A stretch of DNA of 64,000 nucleotides from Chrysomallon squamiferum (Eukaryota > Animalia > Mollusca). A program made the position numbers and the translations under genes. The DNA lies in the NCBI GenBank assembly GCA_012295275.1, contig CM022673.1:19344001-19408000 (forward strand), read 5' to 3'. Under the pieces are notes generated by a model, which saw only the letters and a program-made list of their open reading frames with translations, made no database searches and had not been told where the DNA came from. Below, one piece after another: positions 23,881 through 63,127 of the stretch; the stretch's first letter is position 1; each line of letters begins with the position of its first letter.

Positions 23881-23965
<85 letters not shown>

Positions 23966-24789: not shown

Positions 24790-24850
<61 letters not shown>

Positions 24851-25672: not shown

Positions 25673-25739
<67 letters not shown>

Positions 25740-26577: not shown

Positions 26578-26654
<77 letters not shown>

Positions 26655-27474: not shown

Positions 27475-27547
<73 letters not shown>

Positions 27548-28372: not shown

Positions 28373-28457
<85 letters not shown>

Positions 28458-29282: not shown

Positions 29283-29349
<67 letters not shown>

Positions 29350-30175: not shown

Positions 30176-30239
<64 letters not shown>

Positions 30240-31063: not shown

Positions 31064-31130
<67 letters not shown>

Positions 31131-31961: not shown

Positions 31962-32037
<76 letters not shown>

Positions 32038-32861: not shown

Positions 32862-32931
<70 letters not shown>

Positions 32932-33755
32932 CAACAACAAAAATTGAAGTAGTAGTAGCAGATGTACTGATAAAATCGATACGTCCGGTTACTGGAGATT
33001 GTTTATACTTAATGAGAATGATTAGCGAAGCGCCCTTGTGATTGAGACAGAAACATTTTAAACGCTTAGCGTGAAGATCATTCTACATTACAAATATATT
33101 CCGGAGAATTTCGATTAATAATTCATTTTAAGGTTTGTGTGAACTTGTAGCGATCTTTTTCACTATCCGTCAAACATTACCGATTATAAATAATGTTACA
33201 GGTACCTCTCTTACTACGTCTCCGAGCACAGGAACAGGTTCAACATCAACTGTTTCTAGTCCTACAACATCAGGTAACTAAATTGCTGTTCGGACAGAGG
33301 TAAAATGTTCATATTAGAAGAACCAGAACATTGTAAAATGTTGTATTTAGCTATTCAGCATTCTACGAAGTACAGTGAAATTAACAAGGAAGAAACTAAA
33401 ATTGTACGACATCTGCGTACGGAACCCACCGCATGATTTACTCGTTTCCTTACTGAAGTTATCAAAATATTGTACTTGCGAATTGTAGTCTTGCTTTCGT
33501 CCCTCTCGTCTAAAGTCTTGGAGGAAACAGAATTATTAAATTTTATCTTTGAAATTACTTCCAGGTACATCACCAACGACAGGAACAGGCCCCACACCAT
33601 CTGTTTCTAGCACAGCCACACCAGGTAACCTATTTATAAATATCTTCTTTCGAAGAGTAACGACATACAGACTGATGATCGATTTCTGTTAACTATGTTA
33701 GCAGCCGTCTTGAAATTAGCGTTTGTGTAGTTTTAGGCACACTTAAGTAGGAAGG

Positions 33756-33837
<82 letters not shown>

Positions 33838-34661
33838 CAACAACAAAAATTTAAGTAGTAGTAGCAGATGTACTGATAAAATCGATACGTCCGGTTACTG
33901 GAGATTGTTTATACTTAATGAGAATGATTAGCGAAGCGCCCTTGTGATTGAGACAGAAACATTTTAAACGCTTAGCGTGAAGATCATTCTACATTACAAA
34001 TATATTCCGGAGAATTTCGATTAATAATTCATTTTAAGGTTTGTGTGAACTTGTAGCGATCTTTTTCACTATCCGTCAAACATTACCGATTATAAATAAT
34101 GTTACAGGTACCTCTCTTACTACGTCTCCGAGCACAGGAACAGGTTCAACATCAACTGTTTCTAGTCCTACAACATCAGGTAACTAAATTGCTGTTCGGA
34201 CAGAGGTAAAATGTTCATATTAGAAGAACCAGAACATTGTAAAATGTTGTATTTAGCTATTCAGCATTCTACGAAGTACAGTGAAATTAACAAGGAAGAA
34301 ACTAAAATTGTACGACATCTGCGTACGGAACCCACCGCATGATTTACTCGTTTCCTTACTGAAGTTATCAAAATATTGTACTTGCGAATTGTAGTCTTGC
34401 TTTCGTCCCTCTCGTCTAAAGTCTTGGAGGAAACAGAATTATTAAATTTTATCTTTGAAATTACTTCCAGGTACATCACCAACGACAGGAACAGGCCCCA
34501 CACCATCTGTTTCTAGCACAGCCACACCAGGTAACCTATTTATAAATATCTTCTTTCGAAGAGTAACGACATACAGACTGATGATCGATTTCTGTTAACT
34601 ATGTTAGCAGCCGTCTTGAAATTAGCGTTTGTGTAGTTTTAGGCACACTTAAGTAGGAACG

Positions 34662-34725
<64 letters not shown>

Positions 34726-35549
34726 CAACAACAAAAATTTAAGTAGTAGTAGCAGATGTACTGATAAAATCGATACGTCCGGTTACTGGAGATTGTTTAT
34801 ACTTAATGAGAATGATTAGCGAAGCGCCCTTGTGATTGAGACAGAAACATTTTAAACGCTTAGCGTGAAGATCATTCTACATTACAAATATATTCCGGAG
34901 AATTTCGATTAATAATTCATTTTAAGGTTTGTGTGAACTTGTAGCGATCTTTTTCACTATCCGTCAAACATTACCGATTATAAATAATGTTACAGGTACC
35001 TCTCTTACTACGTCTCCGAGCACAGGAACAGGTTCAACATCAACTGTTTCTAGTCCTACAACATCAGGTAACTAAATTGCTGTTCGGACAGAGGTAAAAT
35101 GTTCATATTAGAAGAACCAGAACATTGTAAAATGTTGTATTTAGCTATTCAGCATTCTACGAAGTACAGTGAAATTAACAAGGAAGAAACTAAAATTGTA
35201 CGACATCTGCGTACGGAACCCACCGCATGATTTACTCGTTTCCTTACTGAAGTTATCAAAATATTGTACTTGCGAATTGTAGTCTTGCTTTCGTCCCTCT
35301 CGTCTAAAGTCTTGGAGGAAACAGAATTATTAAATTTTATCTTTGAAATTACTTCCAGGTACATCACCAACGACAGGAACAGGCCCCACACCATCTGTTT
35401 CTAGCACAGCCACACCAGGTAACCTATTTATAAATATCTTCTTTCGAAGAGTAACGACATACAGACTGATGATCGATTTCTGTTAACTATGTTAGCAGCC
35501 GTCTTGAAATTAGCGTTTGTGTAGTTTTAGGCACACTTAAGTAGGAACG

Positions 35550-35631
<82 letters not shown>

Positions 35632-36455
35632 CAACAACAAAAATTGAAGTAGTAGTAGCAGATGTACTGATAAAATCGATACGTCCGGTTACTGGAGATT
35701 GTTTATACTTAATGAGAATGATTAGCGAAGCGCCCTTGTGATTGAGACAGAAACATTTTAAACGCTTAGCGTGAAGATCATTCTACATTACAAATATATT
35801 CCGGAGAATTTCGATTAATAATTCATTTTATGGTTTGTGTGAACTTGTAGCGATCTTTTTCACTATCCGTCAAACATTACCGATTATAAATAATGTTACA
35901 GGTACCTCTCTTACTACGTCTCCGAGCACAGGAACAGGTTCAACATCAACTGTTTCTAGTCCTACAACATCAGGTAACTAAATTGCTGTTCGGACAGAGG
36001 TAAAATGTTCATATTAGAAGAACCAGAACATTGTAAAATGTTGTATTTAGCTATTCAGCATTCTACGAAGTACAGTGAAATTAACAAGGAAGAAACTAAA
36101 ATTGTACGACATCTGCGTACGGAACCCACCGCATGATTTACTCGTTTCCTTACTGAAGTTATCAAAATATTGTACTTGCGAATTGTAGTCTTGCTTTCGT
36201 CCCTCTCGTCTAAAGTCTTGGAGGAAACAGAATTATTAAATTTTATCTTTGAAATTACTTCCAGGTACATCACCAACGACAGGAACAGGCCCCACACCAT
36301 CTGTTTCTAGCACAGCCACACCAGGTAACCTATTTATAAATATCTTCTTTCGAAGAGTAACGACATACAGACTGATGATCGATTTCTGTTAACTATGTTA
36401 GCAGCCGTCTTGAAATTAGCGTTTGTGTAGTTTTAGGCACACTTAAGTAGGAACG

Positions 36456-36531
<76 letters not shown>

Positions 36532-37358
36532 CAACAACAACAAAAATTGAAGTAGTAGTAGCAGATGTACTGATAAAATCGATACGTCCGGTTACTGGAG
36601 ATTGTTTATACTTAATGAGAATGATTAGCGAAGCGCCCTTGTGATTGAGACAGAAACATTTTAAACGCTTAGCGTGAAGATCATTCTACATTACAAATAT
36701 ATTCCGGAGAATTTCGATTAATAATTCATTTTAAGGTTTGTGTGAACTTGTAGCGATCTTTTTCACTATCCGTCAAACATTACCGATTATAAATAATGTT
36801 ACAGGTACCTCTCTTACTACGTCTCCGAGCACAGGAACAGGTTCAACATCAACTGTTTCTAGTCCTACAACATCAGGTAACTAAATTGCTGTTCGGACAG
36901 AGGTAAAATGTTCATATTAGAAGAACCAGAACATTGTAAAATGTTGTATTTAGCTATTCAGCATTCTACGAAGTACAGTGAAATTAACAAGGAAGAAACT
37001 AAAATTGTACGACATCTGCGTACGGAACCCACCGCATGATTTACTCGTTTCCTTACTGAAGTTATCAAAATATTGTACTTGCGAATTGTAGTCTTGCTTT
37101 CGTCCCTCTCGTCTAAAGTCTTGGAGGAAACAGAATTATTAAATTTTATCTTTGAAATTACTTCCAGGTACATCACCAACGACAGGAACAGGCCCCACAC
37201 CATCTGTTTCTAGCACAGCCACACCAGGTAACCTATTTATAAATATCTTCTTTCGAAGAGTAACGACATACAGACTGATGATCGATTTCTGTTAACTATG
37301 TTAGCAGCCGTCTTGAAATTAGCGTTTGTGTAGTTTTAGGCACACTTAAGTAGGAACG

Positions 37359-37435
<77 letters not shown>

Positions 37436-38256
37436 CAACAAAAATTTAAGTAGTAGTAGCAGATGTACTGATAAAATCGATACGTCCGGTTACTGGAGAT
37501 TGTTTATACTTAATGAGAATGATTAGCGAAGCGCCCTTGTGATTGAGACAGAAACATTTTAAACGCTTAGCGTGAAGATCATTCTACATTACAAATATAT
37601 TCCGGAGAATTTCGATTAATAATTCATTTTAAGGTTTGTGTGAACTTGTAGCGATCTTTTTCACTATCCGTCAAACATTACCGATTATAAATAATGTTAC
37701 AGGTACCTCTCTTACTACGTCTCCGAGCACAGGAACAGGTTCAACATCAACTGTTTCTAGTCCTACAACATCAGGTAACTAAATTGCTGTTCGGACAGAG
37801 GTAAAATGTTCATATTAGAAGAACCAGAACATTGTAAAATGTTGTATTTAGCTATTCAGCATTCTACGAAGTACAGTGAAATTAACAAGGAAGAAACTAA
37901 AATTGTACGACATCTGCGTACGGAACCCACCGCATGATTTACTCGTTTCCTTACTGAAGTTATCAAAATATTGTACTTGCGAATTGTAGTCTTGCTTTCG
38001 TCCCTCTCGTCTAAAGTCTTGGAGGAAACAGAATTATTAAATTTTATCTTTGAAATTACTTCCAGGTACATCACCAACGACAGGAACAGGCCCCACACCA
38101 TCTGTTTCTAGCACAGCCACACCAGGTAACCTATTTATAAATATCTTCTTTCGAAGAGTAACGACATACAGACTGATGATCGATTTCTGTTAACTATGTT
38201 AGCAGCCGTCTTGAAATTAGCGTTTGTGTAGTTTTAGGCACACTTAAGTAGGAACG

Positions 38257-38332
<76 letters not shown>

Positions 38333-39159
38333 CAACAACAAGAAAAATTGAAGTAGTAGTAGCAGATGTACTGATAAAATCGATACGTCCGGTTACTGGA
38401 GATTGTTTATACTTAATGAGAATGATTAGCGAAGCGCCCTTGTGATTGAGACAGAAACATTTTAAACGCTTAGCGTGAAGATCATTCTACATTACAAATA
38501 TATTCCGGAGAATTTCGATTAATAATTCATTTTAAGGTTTGTGTGAACTTGTAGCGATCTTTTTCACTATCCGTCAAACATTACCGATTATAAATAATGT
38601 TACAGGTACCTCTCTTACTACGTCTCCGAGCACAGGAACAGGTTCAACATCAACTGTTTCTAGTCCTACAACATCAGGTAACTAAATTGCTGTTCGGACA
38701 GAGGTAAAATGTTCATATTAGAAGAACCAGAACATTGTAAAATGTTGTATTTAGCTATTCAGCATTCTACGAAGTACAGTGAAATTAACAAGGAAGAAAC
38801 TAAAATTGTACGACATCTGCGTACGGAACCCACCGCATGATTTACTCGTTTCCTTACTGAAGTTATCAAAATATTGTACTTGCGAATTGTAGTCTTGCTT
38901 TCGTCCCTCTCGTCTAAAGTCTTGGAGGAAACAGAATTATTAAATTTTATCTTTGAAATTACTTCCAGGTACATCACCAACGACAGGAACAGGCCCCACA
39001 CCATCTGTTTCTAGCACAGCCACACCAGGTAACCTATATATAAATATCTTCTTTCGAAGAGTAACGACATACAGACTGATGATCGATTTCTGTTAACTAT
39101 GTTAGCAGCCGTCTTGAAATTAGCGTTTGTGTAGTTTTAGGCACACTTAAGTAGGAACG

Positions 39160-39214
<55 letters not shown>

Positions 39215-42200
39215 CAACAACAAAAATTTAAGTAGTAGTAGCAGATGTACTGATAAAATCGATACGTCCGGTTACTGGAGATTGTTTATACTTAATGAGA
39301 ATGATTAGCGAAGCGCCCTTGTGATTGAGACAGAAACATTTTAAACGCTTAGCGTGAAGATCATTCTACATTACAAATATATTCCGGAGAATTTCGATTA
39401 ATAATTCATTTTAAGGTTTGTGTGAACTTGTAGCGATCTTTTTCACTATCCGTCAAACATTACCGATTATAAATAATGTTACAGGTACCTCTCTTACTAC
39501 GTCTCCGAGCACAGGAACAGGTTCAACATCAACTGTTTCTAGTCCTACAACATCAGGTAACTAAATTGCTGTTCGGACAGAGGTAAAATATTCATATTAG
39601 AAGAACCAGAACATTGTAAAATGTTGTATTTAGCTATTCAGCATTCTACGAAGTACAGTGAAATTAACAAGGAAGAAACTAAAATTGTACGACATCTGCG
39701 TACTGAACCCACCGCATGATTTACTCGTTTCCTTACTGAAGTTATCAAAATATTGTACTTGCGAATTGTAGTCTTGCTTTCGTCCCTCTCGTCTAAAGTC
39801 TTGGAGGAAACAGAATTATTAAATTTTATCTTTGAAATTACTTCCAGGTACATCACCAACGACAGGAACAGGCCCCACACCATCTGTTTCTAGCACAGCC
39901 ACACCAGGTAACCTCTTTATAAATATCTTCTTTCGAAGAGTAACGACATACAGACCGATGATTCATTTGTGGAAACCATGTGTCGCAGCGGTCGTGAAAT
40001 TAGCGTTTGTGTAGTTTTAGGCACACATAAGTATGAAGGCTAATAATAATAATAATAATAATAATAATAAGAATAAGAATAAGAATAAGAATAAGAATAA
40101 GAATAAGAATAATAATAATAATAATAATAACAATAACAATAATTGACGTAGTAGTAGGAGATGTAGTGATAAAATCGATACGTCCCTTTACTGAAGATGG
40201 TTTATATTTAATGAGAATGATTATGGTAACTACCTTCTGATTGAGACAGAAACATTTTATAGGCTAAGCGTGAAGAACATTCTACGTTACAATTATATTT
40301 TGGAGAATTTCGAGTAATAATTGATTTTACGTTTTCTATGAACTTGCAGCGTTTGTGTAGTTTTAGGCACACATATGTATGAAGGATAATAATAATAATA
40401 ATAGTACTTGTAGTAGATATAGTGGTAACACTGGTGTAACTGATACATCTTGTTGGAGAATATCGTTGTTATTTTCGAATGTGTTTGATTATGTCAGCGC
40501 CTTTCTGATTCAGAGCGAAGTGTTTTATAGATACAGCTTAAAACTTATTCTTCACTGCAAATTGAGTATCGAATTTTGTTTAACAGTTTTTAGCAGTTTG
40601 TTGTGAACTTGTGCCTGTTGTTCTCACTATCTGTTATGTTTTCAAATGTTTTTTTTACTGAGTTCCTTTTAATATGGTTTTGCAGAACTGTAACTGGTTC
40701 ATCATCAACTGTTTCTAGTCCTACTACGTGAGATAAATAAGTTGCTTTTTATGCGGTATTAAGGCGTTAGTTTCAGGAGAACTTGAGATAAATAATATTT
40801 TTTGTAGACGTATTCTGGATTTTATGAAGCTCAGTCAAAGTTAACTCAGAAAATATAAAATATAAATTAAAATCCCACCTTTGGAAATATAAAATATAAA
40901 TTAAAATCCCAGCTTTGGAAATAGTTATCCGTGAAAGCAAATCGAAATGGCTTTTTCCTTTTATTTTTGTATCTTGTCTTTTTCATTCTAGATTATATGT
41001 TGTCGGTTTTAAATAATGTTTCAGGTACCTTTGTTACTACAGCTCTGAGCACTGGAACATATTCATCATGAATTTCCGCTAAATAAATTACCATTCAGAA
41101 AGTGTTTGCCTTTATGAAACATAGCAAAATTTAGTAGATTGTATTTTAAATATTTTGTCTGTTCTGAGTTAGGTTGTCATTTCTTCACTCTGTCTGTTGC
41201 TAGTATTGAAACGCAGAGCTTTGTTTCTCAGAGAACATTTTCTTTGCTGCAAGCAGTATGATGTCTGTTTCCATTAATTCGTTTTTGAGATAAATTTGTT
41301 AATGTTGTTTTTGTCGTTGTCATCATCATCATCATCTTGACACTCTATAATAGAAATCATTGGTGTTACAATGTTTTCTTACAATATACTGGATGGCATT
41401 TATTTATTTTTTTTTTTTACAGTAAAAGTTTGCAAGGATGATATGCAACCTGTCGAAAAACTGGAGTTTAATCCGAAACGCACTATTTCCTTTGGAGACG
41501 ACAACGTAGCAAGTTTTACAATCAAAGCTACTAGTGACGCAGAGTGGAACGAAATACGTATTGACGTGCCAAATCGAATAAAACGTATTCAGATTAAATT
41601 TGGGAATCAAGAAGTAAGAGTGGGAATCATATAGTGTTTTTTTATTTATATATTTTTTAAAGTTAGCTCTTATGAGGAAACGTTCTTATTATGAGGACAT
41701 TTCATGTTAGTAAACGAAACAAAAATATGTGGCAACATAATACTGCTGGATATTGTTACTTGATTAAAATGCTAGAAAATATAGATTATTCTGCAAATGA
41801 GTCAGGAAATTTCAGATAGCTGGACAATACGATACTATCTAAAAAAAATATATAAGTATGTCGTTAAATTCAAAATGTCATTAACTTCCGAAGTATCCCA
41901 AATGTTTAAATATGTTCGATAAATAACAGAAAATTTACAGAGATTTTTCTTCTTGCAATAAGTGATATGATGGTACATTCAGCAATAGTTGCAACACAGA
42001 AATAAACATTGATAGAAATATCACATTGACCCTCAATTAATTTTCCTTTTCCTTCTCAAGTTTGAAGCAAACATCCAAAATGGTAAGGCTATTTGGACCA
42101 GCCAAAGAGAAATAACGAGTCAGTCTGCTACAGTAACAGTTACACGGGAACCTGATGGACCATCGTCGTTTAATTTGGCCAGTGTGAAAGTTGTTGCTTG

Positions 42201-42689
42201 TCGAAAGGGTAAGAAATTAATCCTAGTGAATAGCGAGTGAAATTGTGATTATTTACCTCCATATGTAAGTATGTGTTTTGTACAAAAACAAAACCTTAAA
42301 TTAATCATTAAGCTACTTTCTTAATACTATATCATAGCTATGTTATCACCACTTTTATCATTTCCATTATATTACGACAATAATTTAAGTAAAAATTAGT
42401 TCTTAGTGTTCAGCAGTTATATATAAATAGGCAAAAAAGCAATATGTAAATCTTCAGGGAGTTCGTCGTTCTCTAATTATATAGTATTTATTATTATTAT
42501 TATTTAATTTGTTCTGTCTATACCTCTTCGCGTGTGATGTATTTATGTATTTATTCATGCGTCTTCTGACCTACACATAATTAATATTCCATTATAAGGT
42601 AACTACGAAACAAAATAGTTTAACATGATGTAGGCAGTTCCAGGACTATTGTGCGCTGTAATTGTAATCATAATAATAATAAATGCAAT

Positions 42690-42777
<88 letters not shown>

Positions 42778-43245
42778 TTATAACAAAAAACATAAAATGC
42801 CTATTGTTATTTTCATCCATTTTAACACAGTTATTTGTAGATATAGAAGTGGTTCCTCACTGAATCGTATATATTTGTTTATTAAAGTCGAATGACAATA
42901 TACATAACAATAACGCTTGTGTGAAAAACATTGTGAAATAGTTGAGAGAGGTTGAATAAAATCTATAGAAATCATTTACAAAATCATTTAGAAAAATATG
43001 TAAATACATTTATAATTAATTAGGAAAATCCAGTTATATTATTATATGTACAACAGAACGTATATCCTATTATTAGAAAACCATGTCTTAATTTAAAAAC
43101 ATGCTAAATACATAAAAATTATTTAACAAACCTAGTTTAATAAAGGGATATATATATAAAAAAAATAATCTTTATTATTAAAATATGATACATAAACTCA
43201 ATATTAATGTAACGAAATCAATAAAAATATTAAATTTATATCCGG

Positions 43246-43285
<40 letters not shown>

Positions 43286-43486
43286 ACACTTAATGCATTT
43301 AGGTTCGTGTTTCAGTATTATTATGTAAATTCCAAATACAATTAAATTTAACTCTCTTCTTTTTGTTTTTAATTTCAGAGGAAGAGATAACAACAACAGG
43401 TTTGTTGATTTTTGATTTAGTTATCTTTACGATAAAACAAATGATGACATCAAGTTCCTAAGAATATTGCGAACAACTTTCAACTG

Positions 43487-43518
<32 letters not shown>

Positions 43519-45797
43519 TATATTTTTGATTTTCAGAAAACTGTGGTATTTCTGTATAACATTTCTATATGTCATGTTACTTTGGTGAAAATCTGGTAAA
43601 CCAAAAGTATTAATTTTTAAAAATATTTTCATTGGCAAATGATATTTAAGACTCCATCTGACTTCCATATTATATATGCTATAAAATATATATATATTAT
43701 ATTTACACATTACAAATCATAATAAATCTTTATTCGTAAAAAATGCCTTAATTTAAACAGAAAATAAATTAAACTCCGTTACTGCATGAAAAAATAGGAA
43801 AGAACAGGCAGAATAATACATAGGTATACACAACCGAACCGCAAGTCCAAACCATTCCCGTACGAAACCAGTCGGTAACACATATATTATAATATTATAA
43901 TGTGGTGTTGTTACCATTTTGTACAAAAGTCTATAATTGTCTCTTCTTCTGTTTCATCCTGTTCAGATCAGTTTTATATATAGAACAGACAAATTGTAAA
44001 ATTAGCACTCGACATGAATGCGCTCATTCAGAACACAAACTGTTAGATCCTGATCGATTTTATATGTCACATAGGAATGTTGCCATAATTATCTAATTCA
44101 AATCAATAGCCAGTATAAATGATTTATAATGTAATTACTTAAATAGAATTGTAATTTGTTATTTTTTATTTTTTTTATTGTTTATCCAGAAACAACAGGT
44201 GGCGGAGGAGAGACATCAGCTCAGACATCAACAACTATTACATCTAAGACATCAACAACCATTACATCTAAGACATCAACAACCATTACACCTAAGTCTA
44301 CAACAAGTAAGCATTTACTTTTAACAGACAGTGGAATTTAATTTTCCTCTACTCTAGCAAAGAAGATGACCTATCCGTTTTGTTTTGTTTTGTGAATGCA
44401 TTGAACTTATATTCAATGAGAGTTTGTCGCAAGCAAAAATATCCAGAAGTAACAAACATTATTTAGGATAACCGTTATGTAACGACGATTTAACAAATAT
44501 AAAATATATTTAAACTATTTCTTTCATTCATTTATTTTGCACTTTGTATTAGAAAGGTATTTTCAAACCATGACCCTTTCAAAAAGTACACTGTATATCC
44601 GTAACTTTACACAACCCACAAAACGTTGACAATATAAAAAAAAAAAAAATAAAAATAAATCAACTGTTTCAATTATTTTTTGTCCATAAAATATTGGGTA
44701 ATATAATTTTCATTTCGTGAGAGTGTATTCTACGTGTGTCCTAAACTGTAATTTTAAATACACAGATAAATATACACATATCTGTATTATCATTACCTTT
44801 TCTTTTCTTTTTATTTATTTATTTATTACCTTAGATCATATTTTAGTTCAAACAATTCGCCAATACATTTTTTTTTGAATAAATCACACAATTTAGTTAA
44901 TTTATTACCGGGTAATATTTATATTGCGGTATCGACGAAGACATCTGCGATATCAGCTACCAAACAAATAAGCACTGTTGGAATAACAAGTAATATGTTA
45001 AAAAAATATATACTGCATTAGCAGAAGTATCTACGGATTATATTTCCAAAGTAAATCCGTTTTGTTAATCCGAGACTTTAGCAGGGTTTTGATGATATTA
45101 ATTCACAAATAACTTATATTCCATTTACTTACAGTAAATTGATTTTCTTTATTATTTTCCATTTTTGCTTTGAAATTCGATTTTTTTACCTTCATGAGGA
45201 GATATTCATGGGAACTGTCCAAAGGGGGGACTCTTGATAGTAGAGTAATACAAGCATAATTACCTTAATAGGTAAATATAATTTTCCCCTGACTTCACCA
45301 TACTCCTTGTATCAAAATTACTATTGTTTCTGCAGCTACAGTTACTACTATTAATTTTACTACTACTAATACTGCTGCTTCTGCTACTGCTGCTACAACT
45401 ATAAATAATCATACAAATCAAAACATTTAGCTATTAATAGTGTATTTGCATAATCTTAACGTTAACGAGTAACTAAATATTCCATGTATTATTTTATAGA
45501 ACTATCATGTACTGATGATATGAGTCCAGTAGCTATGGAGAAATTAAAATCGGCCTTACCAAAGAACGTTGAATTTGGAAAAACAAACGAACAGATTGTT
45601 ATTGCAGAATTAACCAGTGTTGAACGAATAGTTTTGTTTGAACTTGAATTATCATTCGGGAAACCAGTGACAGCTGCACTGTCTGATGGGACAAATTATG
45701 TGAGTATAATCACAGGCAGTTCGGGTATGTAAAATACTTTTATATCTTCACCCGTGTAAAGTAAAATTATTTAATCCAACTATGCAGTGACAGAATA

Positions 45798-45873
<76 letters not shown>

Positions 45874-48704
45874 TGCGTAATGTGTGTGTGTTTATGATCT
45901 AACTAATCTGCATTTATATTTTTAATGCATCTAGATTCCCATGAAGTCAAACGATAAAAGAATAACCTTTTCATACACCAACACTGATGGTTTGAATTTG
46001 AAGAACATCAAATTGAATATCACGAAAAATCCTGAAGATGGACCATCTATACAGATTACTGTCAACAAAATTACGGCCTGTGCCAAAGGTAACAACAAAC
46101 AATATTTCATAAACATAACAACAAAAACAAACCCCCCAAAATTAACAACTAATTTCCATATGCCTGAATAATGATGATGACGATGATGATGATGATGATA
46201 ATAATAATAATAATAAAGACAACAAAAACAAGAACAACGACATCGACAGCAACAACAATAATAAACTGTCATAATAAACATTAGATATAACTAGATGAAT
46301 ACAAATGAAGACAAATTTCGGAATTATGAAAATTACTCGCTCGTCATCGATGAAAACATTTGAAAATACTTTAAAAAATGTTTTGTTTGTTTATCGGCCT
46401 AAATTTATTTATTCTGTTTAATTTTAACTTTTCTTTTGTTTCCTCAATATTTGTAATATTTATGATTGAAATTTTTATTTTCGAGATGACGCTGTCAACT
46501 GTCAATGCAGAAAGGTTAAAATGTATTTTCTTAGACCAAAGTATCAAAAGAATATCTGACAAAACAAATAGACTTTAGCGCATATATTGCATTAAACTAA
46601 TTATCAGTGAAAACAGAAAGATGGACAATTTGAAACTGTATATAATTTGCTAATGACATACTAAAAGTCAAACTGTCATGATAAAAAACGACAAAGACGA
46701 AAACGACAAAGAAAAATATAAAAAATTAAAATGAACATAAAAAAGAAAACAAATAAAAAGAAAAAAAGAAAATGAAAAGAAAAAGAAAAACGGAAACAAC
46801 AAAAAAATTACAGATAATGTAATGGAACGAAAACAAAAGAAAACAGTAATTTTTTGTTTCTTATGACGCAAACATTTGATATTAAAATATGATAATATAG
46901 ATAATAATAAAAATTAATTTTGCTTATTTTTATTATAATTCTAATTAATATAACATAATATTTATTCCTAATATGTATCTTTAAATAAACTACAATAAAA
47001 GTTTATTTTAATCTTTAGAGCTGGAATTTTTCATGTTTTAAGTATATTTCCAGTTAAAATAATCTCATTTTTAATTCGTAATATATAACTTTTATTTTAA
47101 GAGCAGGCATCGGCTCTATGCATGCATCTTAGTGATTTCTTTACAAGTATTTGAATGACAAGTGAGCCCTTTTAATAGTTCACATAATCTTTGTTTTGAA
47201 TGATAGGGTACATTAACAGTCTTCTACCTTGTTTCAACAATACTGACAATTAACAGTTCTAAAACGTTGATAGCAATAACAATTATAAACAAAAGAAAGA
47301 TGCCAAAATGTCAATGGTAATATAAAGCCTATGTAACGCCTAATAAATTACATAATACCAGGTGCGGGCAAAGAATGTTTATTTTCTGTAAAGAATAATG
47401 CCATGACGAAATATTTCGCTAGATCACTCAGTAAACCTGTTGGATTACAATAATTATTTAGAAATATATATATAAACACCTTTTAAATATCTAAGTTTGC
47501 CTCAGGCATATTCGAAATAGTTATCAATAAATTTGATAACGAAAAAAACCAGGAAGTAGCAGTAGAAATATATATTTCAAATTAATTCTTAATAATATTC
47601 TATCAATAATATTGAAGATCTATTTAAACCAACTAAATCTAAATTAACGAGCAAACATAGAATATCTGCTTTTCCAATAAAATATATTCTCAAACCCTTG
47701 ACGGGAAAATATCTTTACCATTTTCAGAGACATAAGGAGTTTAAACAGAAAAATAAAGATAACAAATGACTAAAGAAATGTATATAAAATAAAAAGTTGT
47801 ATCATATTCCAAGAAACGTACTAAACCAAGAAAAAAATAATAATATATATATATATATAAAACCCACAGGATCCATTAATGAATCTCACATTTCGTTTAA
47901 AAAACATGACGTTCGAGATAATAACATAATGATTAGAGTAAACATAGCTTAGGCTACTTCGAGGACGATGCAGGTGACGCAAGCTATGCCTAAAACGTAA
48001 AACAAAACGAAACACCGAAACAAAGGCAACAAACACAAAACGACTTTCAAACAAACAAAATAATTAATGCACAAAACATGAAGGAAAAATTAAAGAAAAA
48101 TTAATTATGTCCTTCAGTATTTACGACAAAACCCAGCAGATATATCAATGATAGACTTTAATCTTCTACTTCTAGTAAACGCCCTTTATGGATAAGCTGA
48201 TATGCATGCAAATGAAATTTACACATTCTTTTTTCTTTGTACAACCTAATTTTTCATGGTATTAACCCTTTATGTTTGCTCACTGAAACAACATCATTTC
48301 TGTCTGTTCGATTCACCACGTATGGCTGTAGGAAAACTCAATAATGGAAATTCATTTCATTTTCAAGAATGTTGCAAGGACATGAGCCCAGTGTCACCGA
48401 ATGACTACGATGTGAAAAGAGAAAGTGGACAGACTTTTTGCTGTACACTACTCCATTCAAGATTTATCTGTACCAGTAAGAACGGAATTAGCAGATACCT
48501 TTAGAATACTCAAACCTGTTGCACTGAAAACTATTTTGTTGAATATACAACATGCTTAAATGCTTGAATTTCTTCTAGTGAATCTGCTTGTCTATTCCCT
48601 TGGTATTTGTATATCTATAATTTGCGTAATCACCTGCAGTTAAATGATCTGCATTTATAATACGAAAATTGTTATACACGCGATTAATGGAGTTAAAAGG
48701 AAAA

Positions 48705-48739
<35 letters not shown>

Positions 48740-50494
48740 ACAATAATAATAATAATAAAATAATAATAATAATAAAAATAATAATAGTAATGTAAAACAA
48801 ACAAAAAAAAACATAACATTTAAAAGCAATTGGAAATAAATCAGAAAATTTCTTAACAGTTTAACAACCAATCTAACATTTTTCGGGAAAATGGAAGAAA
48901 TCTTACGATTGCGTACATGACGTTCAGAGAAACATTGGTCGGTGAAGTTAACGTAAGGTAATGTACTTCGAGCACGATTCCGATGACGCAAGCCTTGCAG
49001 AAAAAGTGTAGCAAAAACAAACACTGAAAGAGAGGAAAGACGAACCAAACAAAAGGGGAAACAAACGAATGAATTAATATATCATGTATGAGACCTACTT
49101 TAATCAAGTATTTATTTTCTTGTTTCAGTGTCTTCAACGACAACACCCACTGTAGGAACAACTGTTAGTGCCACTCCTAGCGTCAGTGGAACAACACCTA
49201 GTGTCACAGGACCAACACCTAGTGTCACAGGACCAACACCTAGTGTCAGTGGAACAACACCTAGTGTCAGTGCGACAACTCCTATCGGTATGACTGGCTT
49301 CATGATTTAAGCAATTTTATGAAACCTTCGATCATTTTTCAGTTATAACAATGATAGACTTTAATGCTGTCTTTCTAAGTAAACGCTCTTTATGGATTTG
49401 CAGTTCTGAGTGGAAATTTAATTATATATTGATTTTTTTTCGTATAACCTAATTTTTCATGGTGTTAACCCTTTATGTTTGCTCACTGAAAGGACATCGT
49501 TTGTGTCTGTTCGATTCACCAAGTATGGATGTAGGAAAACTGTATAGTGGAATTTCATTTTATTTTCAAGGATGCGGCAAGGACATGAGCCCTGTTTCAC
49601 CGAATGACTACAATGTGAAACCATCTAAGACAGCAACGTTTCCAGATAAGGACACGGAAGTAACCGTAACTTTAGAGACCAACACTGACGAAACAGTCTG
49701 GTACAAAGTCACCTTCGATGCTCCCGATAAAATCACTGCTGTGGTTTTCACTGTTGGTGACAAAAACGTGAGTATTCAGTAAAATGTTATAAATCCTTGG
49801 TTTTAATGTCCGAGTACCGTATGCATATCTTGCTACGTTTAATATATAATATCACTATTATTGAACAAGTGTCTTCTCAGTCTGTATTCATATTCGTCTG
49901 CAGTACTTATATTGTAACTGGAGTTAACTTAGTGACGAAACCTTTTCCCCTTCTCGTTAAAGGTCAATGGAAAACTGGAAAATGAAAAATTTGTGTTTGA
50001 AACTGACGAAAATGGATTGAAAGGAAAGACTCTTACAATAAAACTAACACGCTCCGTGCCAGGACCTGCGTCTGTAACGCTCGACAATATGGAAGTGACG
50101 GCTTGCCAGAAAGGTATGTTCTCCAACATGTATAAAAATGTTAGTTTTGTTTCAGGTGTTACAAAAGAGATTTCAGTAGTCTTTTCAAAAATCAAGAATT
50201 AACGTGTGCTTTTGGTGAAAGGTGGTGTTCACAATTAAGAAAAGAGAAAGTGAACTAACGTTTTGCTGTACACTACTCCATTCAAGATTTATCTGTACCA
50301 GTAAGAACGGAATTAGCAGATACCTTTAGAATAGTCAAACCTGCTGCACTGAAAACTATTTTGTTGAAGATACAACATGCGTAAATGCGTGAACTTTCTT
50401 CTGGTGAATCTGTTTGTCTATTTCCTTGGTATTTGTATATCTATAATTTGCGAAATCACCTGCAGTTAAATGATCAGCATTTGTAATGCGAAAA

Positions 50495-50530
<36 letters not shown>

Positions 50531-52287
50531 CCAGAGAAAAATGCGTAACAGTAAAAGAATCTTGTTATATTAGTAGACACGCCTATGTAAAACAAAAGTA
50601 AACATAACATACAAAAGCAATTGGTAATAAATCAGAAGATTTGTTAACAGCTTACCAACCATTCTAAGATTTTTTCTATGAAATGGAAGAAATCTTATGC
50701 TTGCGTAGACGGCGTTCAGAGTAACATTGGTCGGTGAAGTTAACGTAAGGTAATGTATTTTGAGCACGATTCCGATGACGCAAGCCTTGCAGAAAAAGCG
50801 TAGCAAAAACAAACACTGAAAGAGAGGAAAGACGAACCAAACAAAAGGGGAAACAAACGAATGAATTAATATATCATGTATGAGACCTACTTTAATCAAG
50901 TATTTATTTTCTTGTTTCAGTGTCTTCAACGACAACACCCACTGTAGGAACAACTGTTAGTGCCACTCCTAGCGTCAGTGGAACAACACCTAGTGTCACA
51001 GGACCAACACCTAGTGTCACAGGACCAACACCTAGTGTCAGTGGAACAACACCTAGTGTCAGTGCGACAACTCCTTTCGGTATGACTGGCTTCATGATTT
51101 AAGCAATTTTATGAAACCTTCGATCATTTTTCAGTTATAACAATGATAGACTTTAATGCTGTCTTTCTAAGTAAACGCTCTTTATGGATTTGCTGTTCTG
51201 AGTGGAAATTTAATTATATATTTTTTTTTTTTTCGTATAACCTAATTTTTCATGGTGTTAACCCTTTATGTTTGCTCACTGAAAGGACATCGTTTGTGTC
51301 TGTTCGATTCACCAAGTATGGATGTAGGAAAACTGTATAGTGGAATTTCATTTTATTTTCAAGTATGCGGCAAGGACATGAGCCCTGTTTCACCGAATGA
51401 CTACAATGTGAAACCATCTAAGACAGCAACGTTTCCAGATAAGGACACGGAAGTAACCGTAACTTTAGAGACCACCACTGACGAAACAGTCTGGTACAAA
51501 GTCACCTTCGATGCTCCCGATATAATCACTGCTGTGGTTTTCACTGTTGGTGACAAAAACGTGAGTATTCAGTAAAATGTTATAAATCCTTGGTTTTAAT
51601 GTCCGAGTACCGTATGCATATCTTGCTACGTTTAATATATAATATCACTATTATTGAACGAGTGTCTTCTCAGTCTGTATTCATATTCGTCTGCAGTATT
51701 TATATTGTAACTGGAGTTAACTTAGTGACGAAACCTTTTCCCCTTCTCGTTAAAGGTCAATGGAAAACTGGAAAATGGGAAATTTGTGTTTGAAACTGAC
51801 AAAAATGGATTGAAAGGAAAGACTCTTACAATAAAACTAACAAGCTCCGTGCCAGGACCTGCGTCTGTAACGCTCGACAATATGGAAGTGACGGCTTGCC
51901 AGAAAGGTATGTTCTCCAACATGTATAAAAATGTTAGTTTTGTTTCAGGTGTTACAAAAGAGATTTCAGTATTCTTTTCAAAAATCAAGAATTAACGTGT
52001 GCTTTTGGTGAAAGGTGGTGTTCACAATTAAGAAAAGAGAAAGTGAACTAACGTTTTGCTGTACACTACTCCATTCAAGATGTATCTGTACCAGTAAGAA
52101 CGGAATTAGCAGATACCTTTAGAATAGTCAAACCAGCTGCACTGAAAACTATTTTGTTGAAGATACAACATGCGTAAATGCGTGAACTTTCTTCTGGTGA
52201 ATCTGTTTGTCTATTTCCTTGGTATTTGTATATCTATAATTTGCGTAATCACCTGCAGTTAAATGATCAGCATTTATAATGCGAAAA

Positions 52288-52323
<36 letters not shown>

Positions 52324-54078
52324 CCAGAGAAAAATGCGTAACAATAAAAGAATCTTGTTATATTAGTAGACACGCCTATGTAAAACAAAAGTAAACATAA
52401 CATACAAAAGCAATTGGTAATAAATCAGAAGATTTGTTAACAGCTTACCAACCATTCTAAGATTTTTCTATGAAATGGAAGAAATCTTATGCTTGCGTAC
52501 ACGGCGTTCAGAGTAACATTGGTCGGTGAAGTTAACGTAAGGTAATGTACTTTGAGCACGATTCCGATGACGCAAGCCTTGCAGAAAAAGTGTAGCAAAA
52601 ACAAACACTGAAAGAGAGGAAAGACGAACCAAACAAAAGGGGAAACAAACGAATGAATTAATATATCATGTATGAGACCTACTTTAATCAAGTATTTATT
52701 TTCTTGTTTCAGTGTCTTCAACGACAACACCCACTGTAGGAACAACTGTTAGTGCCACTCCTAGCGTCAGTGGAACAACACCTAGTGTCACAGGACCAAC
52801 ACCTAGTGTCACAGGACCAACACCTAGTGTCAGTGGAACAACACCTAGTGTCAGTGCGACAACTCCTTTCGGTATGACTGGCTTCCATGATTTAAGCAAT
52901 TTTATGAAACCTTCGATCATTTTTCAGTTATAACAATGATAGACTTTAATGCTGTCTTTCTAAGTAAACGCTCTTTATGGATTTGCTGTTCTGAGTGGAA
53001 ATTTAATTATATATTTTTTTTTTTTTCGTATAACCTAATTTTTCATGGTGTTAACCCTTTATGTTTGCTCACTGAAAGGACATCGTTTGTGTCTGTTCGA
53101 TTCACCAAGTATGGATGTAGGAAAACTGTATAGTGGAATTTCATTTTATTTTCAAGTATGCGGCAAGGACATGAGCCCTGTTTCACCGAATGACTACAAT
53201 GTGAAACCATCTAAGACAGCAACGTTTCCAGATAAGGACACGGAAGTAACCGTAACTTTAGAGACCACCACTGACGAAACAGTCTGGTACAAAGTCACCT
53301 TCGATGCTCCCGATATAATCACTGCTGTGGTTTTCACTGTTGGTGACAAAAACGTGAGTATTCAGTAAAATGTTATAAATCCTTGGTTTTAATGTCCGAG
53401 TACCGTATGCATATCTTGCTACGTTTAATATATAATATCACTATTATTGAACGAGTGTCTTCTCAGTCTGTATTCATATTCGTCTGCAGTATTTATATTG
53501 TAACTGGAGTTAACTTAGTGACGAAACCTTTTCCCCTTCTCGTTAAAGGTCAATGGAAAACTGGAAAATGGGAAATTTGTGTTTGAAACTGACAAAATGG
53601 ATTGAAAGGAAAGACTCTTACAATAAAACTAACAAGCTCCGTGCCAGGACCTGCGTCTGTAACGCTCGACAATATGGAAGTGACGGCTTGCCAGAAAGGT
53701 ATGTTCTCCAACATGTATAAAAATGTTAGTTTTGTTTCAGGTGTTACAAAAGAGATTTCAGTATTCTTTTCAAAAATCAAGAATTAACGTGTGCTTTTGG
53801 TGAAAGGTGGTGTTCACAATTAAGAAAAGAGAAAGTGAACTAACGTTTTGCTGTACACTACTCCATTCAAGATGTATCTGTACCAGTAAGAACGGAATTA
53901 GCAGATACCTTTAGAATAGTCAAACCAGCTGCACTGAAAACTATTTTGTTGAAGATACAACATGCGTAAATGCGTGAACTTTCTTCTGGTGAATCTGTTT
54001 GTCTATTTCCTTGGTATTTGTATATCTATAATTTGCGTAATCACCTGCAGTTAAATGATCAGCATTTATAATGCGAAA

Positions 54079-54115
<37 letters not shown>

Positions 54116-55871
54116 CCAGAGAAAAATGCGTAACAATAAAAGAATCTTGTTATATTAGTAGACACGCCTATGTAAAACAAAAGTAAACATAACATACAAA
54201 AGCAATTGGTAATAAATCAGAAGATTTGTTAACAGCTTACCAACCATTCTAAGATTTTTCTATGAAATGGAAGAAATCTTATGCTTGCGTACACGGCGTT
54301 CAGAGTAACATTGGTCGGTGAAGTTAACGTAAGGTAATGTACTTTGAGCACGATTCCGATGACGCAAGCCTTGCAGAAAAAGTGTAGCAAAAACAAACAC
54401 TGAAAGAGAGGAAAGACGAACCAAACAAAAGGGGAAACAAACGAATGAATTAATATATCATGTATGAGACCTACTTTAATCAAGTATTTATTTTCTTGTT
54501 TCAGTGTCTTCAACGACAACACCCACTGTAGGAACAACTGTTAGTGCCACTCCTAGCGTCAGTGGAACAACACCTAGTGTCACAGGACCAACACCTAGTG
54601 TCACAGGACCAACACCTAGTGTCAGTGGAACAACACCTAGTGTCAGTGCGACAACTCCTTTCGGTATGACTGGCTTCATGATTTAAGCAATTTTATGAAA
54701 CCTTCGATCATTTTTCAGTTATAACAATGATAGACTTTAATGCTGTCTTTCTAAGTAAACGCTCTTTATGGATTTGCTGTTCTGAGTGGAAATTTAATTA
54801 TATATTTTTTTTTTTCGTATAACCTAATTTTTCATGGTGTTAACCCTTTATGTTTGCTCACTGAAAGGACATCGTTTGTGTCTGTTCGATTCACCAAGTA
54901 TGGATGTAGGAAAACTGTATAGTGGAATTTCATTTTATTTTCAAGTATGCGGCAAGGACATGAGCCCTGTTTCACCGAATGACTACAATGTGAAACCATC
55001 TAAGACAGCAACGTTTCCAGATAAGGACACGGAAGTAACCGTAACTTTAGAGACCACCACTGACGAAACAGTCTGGTACAAAGTCACCTTCGATGCTCCC
55101 GATATAATCACTGCTGTGGTTTTCACTGTTGGTGACAAAAACGTGAGTATTCAGTAAAATGTTATAAATCCTTGGTTTTAATGTCCGAGTACCGTATGCA
55201 TATCTTGCTACGTTTAATATATAATATCACTATTATTGAACGAGTGTCTTCTCAGTCTGTATTCATATTCGTCTGCAGTATTTATATTGTAACTGGAGTT
55301 AACTTAGTGACGAAACCTTTTCCCCTTCTCGTTAAAGGTCAATGGAAAACTGGAAAATGGGAAATTTGTGTTTGAAACTGACAAAAATGGATTGAAAGGA
55401 AAGACTCTTACAATAAAACTAACAAGCTCCGTGCCAGGACCTGCGTCTGTAACGCTCGACAATATGGAAGTGACGGCTTGCCAGAAAGGTATGTTCTCCA
55501 ACATGTATAAAAATGTTAGTTTTGTTTCAGGTGTTACAAAAAAGAGATTTCAGTATTCTTTTCAAAAATCAAGAATTAACGTGTGCTTTTGGTGAAAGGT
55601 GGTGTTCACAATTAAGAAAAGAGAAAGTGAACTAACGTTTTGCTGTACACTACTCCATTCAAGATGTATCTGTACCAGTAAGAACGGAATTAGCAGATAC
55701 CTTTAGAATAGTCAAACCAGCTGCACTGAAAACTATTTTGTTGAAGATACAACATGCGTAAATGCGTGAACTTTCTTCTGGTGAATCTGTTTGTCTATTT
55801 CCTTGGTATTTGTATATCTATAATTTGCGTAATCACCTGCAGTTAAATGATCAGCATTTATAATGCGAAAA

Positions 55872-55916
<45 letters not shown>

Positions 55917-57676
55917 CCAGAGAAAAATGCGTAACAATAAAAGAATCTTGTTATATTAGTAGACACGCCTATGTAAAACAAAAGTAAACATAACATACAA
56001 AAGCAATTGGTAATAAATCAGAAGATTTGTTAACAGCTTACCAACCATTCTAAGATTTTTCTATGAAATGGAAGAAATCTTATGCTTGCGTACACGGCGT
56101 TCAGAGTAACATTGGTCGGTGAAGTTAACGTAAGGTAATGTACTTTGAGCACGATTCCGATGACGCAAGCCTTGCAGCAAAAAAAGTGTAGCAAAAACAA
56201 ACACTGAAAGAGAGGAAAGACGAACCAAACAAAAGGGGAAACAAACGAATGAATTAATATATCATGTATGAGACCTACTTTAATCAAGTATTTATTTTCT
56301 TGTTTCAGTGTCTTCAACGACAACACCCACTGTAGGAACAACTGTTAGTGCCACTCCTAGCGTCAGTGGAACAACACCTAGTGTCACAGGACCAACACCT
56401 AGTGTCACAGGACCAACACCTAGTGTCAGTGGAACAACACCTAGTGTCAGTGCGACAACTCCTTTCGGTATGACTGGCTTCATGATTTAAGCAATTTTAT
56501 GAAACCTTCGATCATTTTTCAGTTATAACAATGATAGACTTTAATGCTGTCTTTCTAAGTAAACGCTCTTTATGGATTTGCTGTTCTGAGTGGAAATTTA
56601 ATTATATATTTTTTTTTTTTCGTATAACCTAATTTTTCATGGTGTTAACCCTTTATGTTTGCTCACTGAAAGGACATCGTTTGTGTCTGTTCGATTCACC
56701 AAGTATGGATGTAGGAAAACTGTATAGTGGAATTTCATTTTATTTTCAAGTATGCGGCAAGGACATGAGCCCTGTTTCACCGAATGACTACAATGTGAAA
56801 CCATCTAAGACAGCAACGTTTCCAGATAAGGACACGGAAGTAACCGTAACTTTAGAGACCACCACTGACGAAACAGTCTGGTACAAAGTCACCTTCGATG
56901 CTCCCGATATAATCACTGCTGTGGTTTTCACTGTTGGTGACAAAAACGTGAGTATTCAGTAAAATGTTATAAATCCTTGGTTTTAATGTCCGAGTACCGT
57001 ATGCATATCTTGCTACGTTTAATATATAATATCACTATTATTGAACGAGTGTCTTCTCAGTCTGTATTCATATTCGTCTGCAGTATTTATATTGTAACTG
57101 GAGTTAACTTAGTGACGAAACCTTTTCCCCTTCTCGTTAAAGGTCAATGGAAAACTGGAAAATGGGAAATTTGTGTTTGAAACTGACAAAAATGGATTGA
57201 AAGGAAAGACTCTTACAATAAAACTAACAAGCTCCGTGCCAGGACCTGCGTCTGTAACGCTCGACAATATGGAAGTGACGGCTTGCCAGAAAGGTATGTT
57301 CTCCAACATGTATAAAAATGTTAGTTTTGTTTCAGGTGTTACAAAAGAGATTTCAGTATTCTTTTCAAAAATCAAGAATTAACGTGTGCTTTTGGTGAAA
57401 GGTGGTGTTCACAATTAAGAAAAAGAGAAAGTGAACTAACGTTTTGCTGTACACTACTCCATTCAAGATGTATCTGTACCAGTAAGAACGGAATTAGCAG
57501 ATACCTTTAGAATAGTCAAACCAGCTGCACTGAAAACTATTTTGTTGAAGATACAACATGCGTAAATGCGTGAACTTTCTTCTGGTGAATCTGTTTGTCT
57601 ATTTCCTTGGTATTTGTATATCTATAATTTGCGTAATCACCTGCAGTTAAATGATCAGCATTTATAATGCGAAAAA

Positions 57677-57716
<40 letters not shown>

Positions 57717-59475: not shown

Positions 59476-59523
<48 letters not shown>

Positions 59524-61280: not shown

Positions 61281-61325
<45 letters not shown>

Positions 61326-63085: not shown

Positions 63086-63127
<42 letters not shown>

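What the first reader, a model, noticed from the sequence alone, without database searches (positions are those of the whole stretch)
41423..50113. An unnamed ~115-aa two-cysteine domain family defined by three diverged paralogues
Seen: D1 (113 aa), D2 (118 aa) and domain C (116 aa) are very diverged, yet each has exactly two Cys. They share N-terminal C-x2-D-M-x-P-V (CKDDMQPV, CTDDMSPV, CGKDMSPV), a P..F segment (NPKRTISF, LPKNVEF, KPSKTATF), a late GP turn (DGPSS, DGPSI, PGPAS) and C-terminal [VI]-x-A-C-x-K. All three have the same two-exon phase 1-0-1 structure. Alternating hydrophobic residues suggest an all-beta fold. Known: discoidin/F5-8 type C domains are beta-sandwiches closed by a disulfide between Cys at the two termini (C..PLGM ... 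ELxGC) and occur in invertebrate mucin-like and adhesive proteins; mucin CysD domains have about 10 Cys, so these are not CysD. Inference: a shortened, highly diverged discoidin/galactose-binding-like module, or a new family that may cross-link glycans.
Basis: partly seen in the sequence, partly recalled or inferred. Interest (0 to 1): 0.75.

Follow-up and report, generated by a model that had tools for sequence, protein, structure and literature searches.

The report
Shrunken discoidin modules in snail mucin
A giant mucin-like gene, likely from a deep-sea vent snail, carries small two-cysteine modules between its likely sugar-coated stretches; they match no catalogued family but are predicted to fold as stripped-down discoidin domains and likely act as knobs that cross-link mucus chains rather than as sugar binders.

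Summary
D1, D2 and C are real, spliced in 4 of 4 RNA runs (one study), mutually homologous (shuffle z 7–25), each with two terminal Cys and phase 1-0-1 exons. They are modules of one PTS-rich mucin-like gene, not separate paralogous genes. Named relatives were found only in the vent snail Gigantopelta aegis ('mucin-5AC-like'). No single domain reaches a Pfam cut-off. AlphaFold of the Gigantopelta C-type domain (pLDDT 94.6) is all-beta, and its structural matches are galactose-binding-domain-like jelly rolls (CBM32, DOC, discoidin, neuropilin b1, factor V/VIII C2; Z 7.0–9.6). By range arithmetic its two Cys fall on the neuropilin b1 disulfide Cys275–Cys424. D1- and D2-like homologues fit the same fold. 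It is not a new fold: F5/8 domains are already called characteristic of lophotrochozoan mucins. The modules are about 40 residues short and have no histidine, so canonical galactose binding is unlikely; a CysD-like non-covalent cross-linking role is my best, untested, guess. Verdict: new variant of a known kind.

The parts
41423..41613 (+). D1 exon 1 (phase 1 in, phase 0 out); first Cys
   Evidence: RNA joint 41613>42061 in 4 of 4 runs
42061..42208 (+). D1 exon 2; GP turn, second Cys
43379..43399 (+). 21-nt linker exon between D1 and the next PTS exon
   Evidence: AG/GT ends; 19 unplaced letters between 42207 and 44187 in RNA contig 7 of X2 and RNA cover in that bin; placement inferred
44190..44306 (+). 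Thr/Ser-rich (PTS) linker exon
   Evidence: RNA joint 44306>45500 in X1 and X2
45500..45699 (+). D2 exon 1; first Cys
   Evidence: RNA joint 45699>45935 in 4 of 4 runs
45935..46088 (+). D2 exon 2; second Cys
48137..49128 (+). Decayed first copy of the C repeat unit (84% identical) lacking unit positions about 493-1110; keeps a stub of C exon 1 from 48368; skipped in RNA
   Evidence: RNA joint 46086>49127 in X1 and X3
49129..49287 (+). PTS exon of the first whole C unit
   Evidence: RNA joint 49286>49570 in X1
49571..49767 (+). C exon 1; first Cys
   Evidence: RNA joint 49767>49963 in 4 of 4 runs
49963..50113 (+). C exon 2; GP turn, second Cys
49129..64000 (+). Array of 1.79-1.80 kb units (PTS exon + C domain): 8 whole, 1 cut by the window end; 97.8-98.7% identical to the first unit, introns included
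22430..39907 (+). Upstream PTS array: 20 units of about 0.9 kb, two short Thr/Ser/Pro exons each; spliced onto D1
   Evidence: the loose RNA end before 41420 in X1 and X4 matches the end of the array's 60-nt exon
666..21391 (+). Array of 7 units of about 3.27 kb carrying domain A (exons as 666-817, 929-1028, 1241-1374, 1686-1788; 162 aa, two terminal Cys) with PTS exons; relation to D1/D2/C unproven
   Evidence: RNA joints in X1-X3

Best explanation
D1, D2 and C are RNA-spliced two-cysteine modules of one giant PTS-rich mucin-like gene, predicted to fold as loop-stripped discoidin (F5/8 type C) jelly rolls likely closed by an end-to-end disulfide, and they likely work as side knobs that link mucin chains non-covalently, as CysD does in MUC2. 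Shown: exons, splicing, homology, PTS context, tandem amplification. Predicted, on Gigantopelta homologues: galactose-binding-domain-like fold (about 0.9). Inferred: descent from the F5/8 domains typical of lophotrochozoan mucins (about 0.75); the disulfide (about 0.9). Inferred mechanism (about 0.45): both chain ends leave the same pole, so each module would hang off the glycosylated chain, add little length, be shielded from pulling by the disulfide, and show its other faces to partner modules; the spacing set by the PTS exons would then set the mesh of the gel. The phase 1-0-1 exon pairs make each module a cassette that unequal crossing-over can multiply, as seen for C.
For: Splicing and one-gene context. 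Homologues are in a protein named mucin-5AC-like with the same domain/PTS alternation. Model pLDDT 94.6, pTM 0.86, all-beta from 10 aligned rows. Against 48,161 solved chains the 50 listed rows run from Z 9.6 to 7.0, where the tool's typical rank-50 Z is 4-5; 24 of 50 titles name CBM32, CBM62, DOC, discoidin/DS, F5/8, neuropilin, factor V/VIII or F-lectin, and I assign the others to the same superfamily from recall. Neuropilin b1 (8pfe): Z 7.2, rmsd 3.1, 106 aligned, model 2..116 on 274..427, which puts Cys3 and Cys113 on residues 275 and 424 if the ends are ungapped; Cys275-Cys424 is the disulfide at the barrel bottom, opposite the ligand loops (PMC10385628, passages). D1-like homologue: same hits, Z up to 8.7. 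D2-like homologue: three of the four top Atlas rows align to F5_F8_type_C parts, TM 0.61-0.63, all under the tool's bar for naming a family, and CBM86 at Z 8.2. F5_F8 is 'characteristic' of lophotrochozoan mucin-like proteins, with CysD inserted in the same region (PMC4948705). CysD forms non-covalent cross-links within PTS regions (PMC3195396, abstract).
Against: No direct evidence for the function: the cross-linking step rests on analogy with CysD and on the absence of a lectin signature. Foldseek gave no match with E up to 0.001 for the single domain. Metazoan discoidins (Z 7.0-7.2) rank below a rhamnosidase domain, DOC, IFT25 and CBM32 (Z 8-9.6), and the tool warns that Z under 8 may be only a common arrangement, so the structure search alone does not single out discoidin descent. 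In the D1-like model only the C-terminal Cys falls in register with 8pfe (11..122 on 274..427). Single domains do not match PF00754 at all. The Cys-Cys distance could not be measured (no coordinates served). The D2-like model is weaker (10-residue blocks pLDDT 56-80). VWD domains, signal peptide and gene ends lie outside the window and no genome is held.
Confidence: 0.5

Rival explanations
1. The modules are lectins that bind O-glycans of neighbouring mucin chains or glycans of microbes, through a non-canonical site.
For: The fold is shared with CBM32, discoidin I and F-lectins. CBM32 sites are diverse and 'not predictable' from sequence; one uses a single Trp plus polar residues (PMC5291390, passages). 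Each module sits among PTS stretches.
Against: Canonical CBM32 sites use His plus aromatics in variable apex loops. Here: His in 0 of 6 full domains, Trp absent from both D2-type domains, the only aromatic invariant in 6 of 6 is one Phe, and the domain is about 40 residues shorter than neuropilin b1 with the strands kept, so loops were lost (which loops is inferred).
Confidence: 0.25
2. The modules are discoidin relics without a binding role: compact, protease-resistant beads that break up the PTS chain, help folding and packing in granules, and spread by tandem duplication.
For: Low identity between types (12-34%) with few invariant residues (Cys, Met, Phe, Gly, Cys); C units are homogenised with their introns (97.8-98.7%) and one decayed unit is skipped.
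Against: D2 is 55% identical between the two snails (67-70% in exon 1) against 32% for D1, more than a fold-only constraint would need (inference); three types are kept in both species.
Confidence: 0.2
3. The fold is galactose-binding-domain-like but not of discoidin descent (from a DOC/IFT25/PITH-like or other jelly roll), and the terminal Cys pair is convergent.
For: The highest Z values go to DOC, IFT25 and bacterial CBM32 domains, not to animal discoidins; no sequence match to PF00754.
Against: Shorter-looped members score higher against a short query (inference); the Cys register with neuropilin b1 and the known F5/8 content of lophotrochozoan mucins point to discoidins; DOC, IFT25 and PITH are intracellular (recalled).
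Confidence: 0.15

Closest known systems
Discoidin / F5/8 type C domain (PF00754, FA58C), e.g. neuropilin-1 b1 (PDB 8pfe), factor V/VIII C2, sea-urchin Nectin repeats
   Same: Predicted jelly-roll beta-sandwich; Cys at both termini in the neuropilin b1 disulfide register; tandem use in extracellular invertebrate proteins (PMC10057474, passages).
   Different: 112-117 aa against 154-160; 6-12% identity in the structural alignments with neuropilin, factor V/VIII and DDR; no PF00754 match for single domains; loops much shorter.
Lophotrochozoan gel-forming-mucin-like proteins with F5_F8 and CysD domains (Lang et al. 2016, PMC4948705)
   Same: Discoidin-fold modules in a mollusc mucin-like protein with PTS stretches.
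   Different: Those F5_F8 domains were called with Pfam-type profiles; these are invisible to Pfam, come in three or four diverged types and are amplified as exon cassettes. VWD-C8-TIL units could not be checked here.
CysD (Mucin2_WxxW) domain of MUC2/MUC5
   Same: Small disulfide-stabilised module interrupting PTS regions; the functional model proposed here.
   Different: CysD has five disulfides (PMC3195396, abstract) and a WxxW motif (PMC4948705); these have two Cys and no WxxW.
CBM32 galactose-binding modules
   Same: Fold; Z 7.0-8.4 in rows titled CBM32.
   Different: Bacterial; His/aromatic site in apex loops and a Ca2+ cap (PMC5291390); no His here.
Gigantopelta aegis XP_041347247.1 (mucin-5AC-like, partial) and XP_041347248.1 (uncharacterized)
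   Same: Same domain family: C-type repeats with PTS linkers; a D1-like then D2-like pair; both on a 108,329-base contig.
   Different: Automatic names only; 32-55% identical to the window's domains; the D1-like assignment rests on position, as it is equally close to C (32%).

Membership tests
Discoidin / F5/8 type C (PF00754) | Galactose-binding-domain-like jelly-roll beta-sandwich | tested here: met
   On Gigantopelta homologues: C-type; D1-like; D2-like weaker; D2-like
Discoidin / F5/8 type C (PF00754) | Two Cys at the domain ends, in register with the family's disulfide | tested here: met
   Model 2..116 on 8pfe 274..427 gives Cys3/Cys113 on 275/424 if the ends are ungapped; in the D1-like model only the C-terminal Cys is in register
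Discoidin / F5/8 type C (PF00754) | The disulfide is formed | not testable with these tools
Discoidin / F5/8 type C (PF00754) | Score above the Pfam gathering threshold (28.2 bits) | tested here: not met
   Single domains: no PF00754 row. Four-repeat P0001: 21.4 bits summed, ranked 8th of 22 behind unrelated families. Exons: none
Discoidin / F5/8 type C (PF00754) | About 150-160 residues with long apical ligand loops | tested here: not met
   112-117 aa; 106 of 154 neuropilin b1 residues aligned
CBM32, canonical galactose binding | Binding-site His plus aromatic platform in variable apex loops | tested here: not met
   His in 0 of 6 full domains; feature from PMC5291390 passages
CBM32, canonical galactose binding | Structural Ca2+ site | not tested
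   No residue-level structural alignment was served
CBM32, canonical galactose binding | Binds a sugar | not testable with these tools
   Needs a glycan array or titration
CysD (Mucin2_WxxW) | Ten Cys in five disulfides and a WxxW motif | tested here: not met
   Two Cys, no WxxW in 6 of 6 domains or in A
CysD (Mucin2_WxxW) | Interspersed in PTS regions | tested here: met
CysD (Mucin2_WxxW) | Forms non-covalent dimers | not testable with these tools
   Needs gel filtration or native gels of recombinant modules
Gel-forming mucin | Long Pro/Thr/Ser-rich regions | tested here: met
   PTS exons through the whole window, RNA-spliced
Gel-forming mucin | N-terminal VWD-C8-TIL units, signal peptide, C-terminal cystine knot | not testable with these tools
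   The window holds only the central region; no genome is held

The most novel reading that the evidence does not exclude
Vent snails shrank the discoidin domain of lophotrochozoan mucins to a 115-residue core without its ligand loops, diversified it into at least three types and multiplied it as exon cassettes, so that it serves as an independently evolved CysD substitute that sets the mesh of the mucus; this would be a second, convergent solution to mucin cross-linking and a hidden domain family that may fill the 'domain-free' middles of many mollusc mucins.
Probability: 0.3. Interest if true: 0.62.

Novelty: new variant of a known kind. Interest (0 to 1): 0.4.

Why it matters
Mollusc mucins are poorly annotated, and their central regions are read as featureless PTS. 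This shows a folded, repeated module there that Pfam misses and gives it a fold, so a profile can be built and the region re-annotated. A stable 115-residue, one-disulfide jelly roll is easy to express, which makes the question of how invertebrate mucus gels are cross-linked directly testable. It is not a new fold, and discoidin domains in lophotrochozoan mucins are already reported, which caps the surprise.

Tried and rejected
Pfam on 10 single exons: nothing above cut-off. PDB sequence searches with A1, A2, A3: best E 0.59, 0.013, 0.57, all unrelated. Word-based protein searches: none for the exon-1 alignment, only P0001 itself, none for domain A, searched with a stack of its four non-homologous exons; all are weak negatives by the tool's own note. 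Five of the 12 hits (P0004, P0006, P0007, P0010, P0012) were dropped as repeat-inflated matches without the family's motifs. The Pfam hits above cut-off on P0001 (TFIIA_gamma_C, AAA_lid_10, VIT, HCP, SNX17_FERM_C) were rejected as short matches summed over four near-identical copies; none passes on one copy. The weak PF00754 row on P0001 is not used as evidence for the same reason. Foldseek on the two-domain model gave only low-TM (up to 0.28) tandem beta-protein matches. Homodimer prediction of the C-type domain returned no verdict (score 0.00, controls not run): no evidence either way. Two scans of metagenome contigs found no locus. Atlas feature search: no usable hit for the C-type part, best 0.80 for the D2-like part, within chance; the Atlas structure rows for the C-type part (TM 0.50-0.67) named no family for 9 of 10 aligned parts. 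Domain A shows no internal repeat (816 of 2000 shuffles as good) and no link to the family HMM; it could not be folded. RNA contig depths are higher over A and C than over D1/D2, but the tool states that contig depth cannot rank parts of a gene, so this is not used. Literature searches listed no title or abstract start describing this module; I read passages of only some papers, and did not see supplementary figure S4 of PMC4948705, which may bear on reduced F5_F8 forms. Earlier scan notes: nothing by sequence, place or words.
Full report
1. Observation. Pairwise identity is 18-25%. Local scores exceed all 2000 shuffles (z 24.5 D1-C, 11.4 D2-C, 7.2 D1-D2). Without the terminal motifs D1-C remains clear (z 13.8) and D2 is marginal (z 3.4 and 2.1); an HMM of C- and D1-type domains finds window D2 at 25.4 bits (0 of 957 shuffles) and its interior at 7.8 bits (2 of 974), the Gigantopelta D2-like domain at 10.7 bits (0 of 978) but not its interior (623 of 985). 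So D2 is the outlier but belongs. RNA contigs of 4 of 4 runs, all of one study, skip the three intradomain introns exactly.

2. Context. The whole window is the middle of one gene: 7 units of about 3.27 kb with a 162-aa two-Cys domain A and PTS exons, 20 units of about 0.9 kb of PTS exons only, then D1, PTS, D2, PTS, and 8 whole 1.79-1.80 kb units of PTS + C with a ninth cut off. RNA contigs span D1 to D2 (X2, X3, X4), join D2 to the PTS exon of the C unit and that exon to C, and carry the end of a PTS-array exon in front of D1; A is spliced in X1-X3. No contig spans everything, so the single transcript is inferred from overlapping joints. C units are 97.8-98.7% identical with their introns, and a decayed unit at 48137-49128 is skipped: cassette amplification by unequal crossing-over is the simplest reading (inference).

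3. Relatives. A profile of the three first exons against 1.84 billion representatives gave 12 hits at E up to 0.001; I kept 7 and dropped 5 repeat-inflated ones. Two are named: XP_041347247.1 (mucin-5AC-like, partial; four C-type domains with PTS linkers) and XP_041347248.1 (a D1-like then a D2-like domain), both Gigantopelta aegis, both on a 108,329-base contig. Five are unnamed exon-1 reading frames from ENA or JGI assemblies; 5 of 5 show Val where the window's exon 1 runs into its GT donor, which suggests the same intron position (inference). The window is therefore likely from a related vent snail (inference). The range of the family is not established: the one sensitive search used a half-domain profile of three sequences.

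4. Fold. The window's spliced domains could not be handed to the folding tools, so Gigantopelta homologues stood in (45%, 32% and 55% identical to C, D1, D2). The C-type domain folds with pLDDT 94.6 and pTM 0.86, all-beta. Foldseek gave no match at E up to 0.001; its top rows were CBM32, CBM86 and BIRC6. The exhaustive alignment to 48,161 chains gave Z 9.6 to 7.0 over 50 rows, 97-111 of 116 residues aligned at rmsd 2.6-4.0; 24 of 50 titles name CBM32, CBM62, DOC, discoidin/DS, F5/8, neuropilin, factor V/VIII or F-lectin, and I place the rest in the same galactose-binding-domain-like superfamily from recall (one search agrees). The D1-like domain gives the same set (Z up to 8.7); the D2-like domain is modelled less well, and matches CBM86 at Z 8.2 but also FlhE (6.9) and a GOLD domain (6.8); three of its four top Atlas rows align to F5_F8_type_C parts at TM 0.61-0.63, under the tool's bar for naming a family. 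For neuropilin-1 b1 (8pfe; Z 7.2, rmsd 3.1, 106 aligned) the ranges 2..116 and 274..427 put Cys3 and Cys113 on residues 275 and 424, the disulfide reported for that structure (PMC10385628, passages). The same arithmetic gives 431/583 for neuropilin b2 and 1/156 for factor V C2, which I recall as their disulfide pairs, and is off by one or two at one or both ends for factor VIII C2 and DDR2 (recalled numbers). This assumes ungapped ends; no residue-level alignment or coordinates were served. Against: animal discoidins rank below DOC, IFT25 and CBM32, and Z under 8 can reflect a common arrangement.

5. Mechanism. In neuropilin b1 the disulfide is at the bottom of the barrel and the ligand loops at the top. 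A module built this way would hang from the PTS chain by one pole, add little length, be bypassed mechanically by its disulfide and present its other faces outward (inference). With strands kept and about 48 neuropilin residues unmatched, the loss is in loops; that it includes the ligand loops is my inference. Canonical CBM32 sites use His and aromatics in such loops (PMC5291390, passages); these domains have His in 0 of 6, the D2 type has no Trp, and one Phe is the only invariant aromatic. The same paper shows non-canonical sites that sequence does not predict, so a lectin role stays open (0.25). The best precedent for a small disulfide-stabilised module interrupting PTS is CysD, which forms non-covalent dimers proposed to set mucus pore size (PMC3195396, abstract). 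I commit to that role by analogy at about 0.45 for the function and 0.5 for the statement as a whole; nothing here tests it.

6. Known versus new. Lang et al. state that the F5_F8 domain is characteristic of lophotrochozoan mucin-like proteins and that CysD is inserted in the same region (PMC4948705, passages and section 15); discoidin repeats also build sea-urchin Nectin (PMC10057474, passages). A limpet mucus study lists galactose-binding-domain superfamily hits in two mucus proteins (PMC7333891, passages). A preprint reports expansion of O-glycan initiation genes in vent Neomphaliones (10.64898/2026.09.02.748897, passages). The modules fail two membership features of PF00754 (score, length) and so are not filed as members; they are built like, and likely descend from, discoidin domains. 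They are not CysD. Six literature searches listed nothing describing them, within a library that lacks most subscription papers.

7. Verdict. Real, expressed, unnamed domain family with a known fold in a known kind of protein: new variant of a known kind, interest 0.4. Open: fold of the window's own domains and of A, taxonomic range, gene ends, and function.

Noticed in passing
window 666-21391: Domain A (162 aa, four exons, phases 1-0-1-0-1, two terminal Cys, no Trp or His) is RNA-spliced, exon-identical in 6 of 7 copies, matches no Pfam family by exon and has no detectable similarity to D1/D2/C. Its length equals that of a full discoidin domain; it may be a longer relative or a separate family.
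   Followed up: partly
window 53549-53698, 58552-58747, 60355-60553, 62555-62704, 17277-17375, 18035-18136: 4 of 8 whole C units and 1 of 7 A units carry 1-2 nt indels in exons; two C units share the same one-base loss next to an A run. Assembly error is likely, but copied lesions are not excluded.
   Followed up: partly
window 48137-49128: Decayed edge copy of the C unit with an internal deletion that fuses a stub of exon 1 to the downstream intron; skipped in RNA. It marks the boundary of the homogenised array.
   Followed up: yes
window 44190-44306: RNA contigs of X1, X3 and X4 show a shorter form of this PTS exon than the assembly (joint 44242>45500 with 16 other letters), while X1 and X2 show the full form: length polymorphism of the 24-nt repeat between individuals or alleles.
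   Followed up: no
window about 44940-44990: A short Thr/Ser-rich open stretch ending at a GT lies between the PTS exon and D2 but is skipped by the RNA joint 44306>45500; possibly a relic exon.
   Followed up: no
window 22430-39907: The PTS region is encoded by 20 near-identical 0.9-kb units of two tiny exons rather than by one large exon as in vertebrate mucins (vertebrate layout recalled).
   Followed up: no
window 45500-45699: D2 exon 1 is the most conserved part between the two snails (67-70% to P0002, 57% to unnamed P0008), well above D1 and C; a candidate for a specific binding surface.
   Followed up: partly
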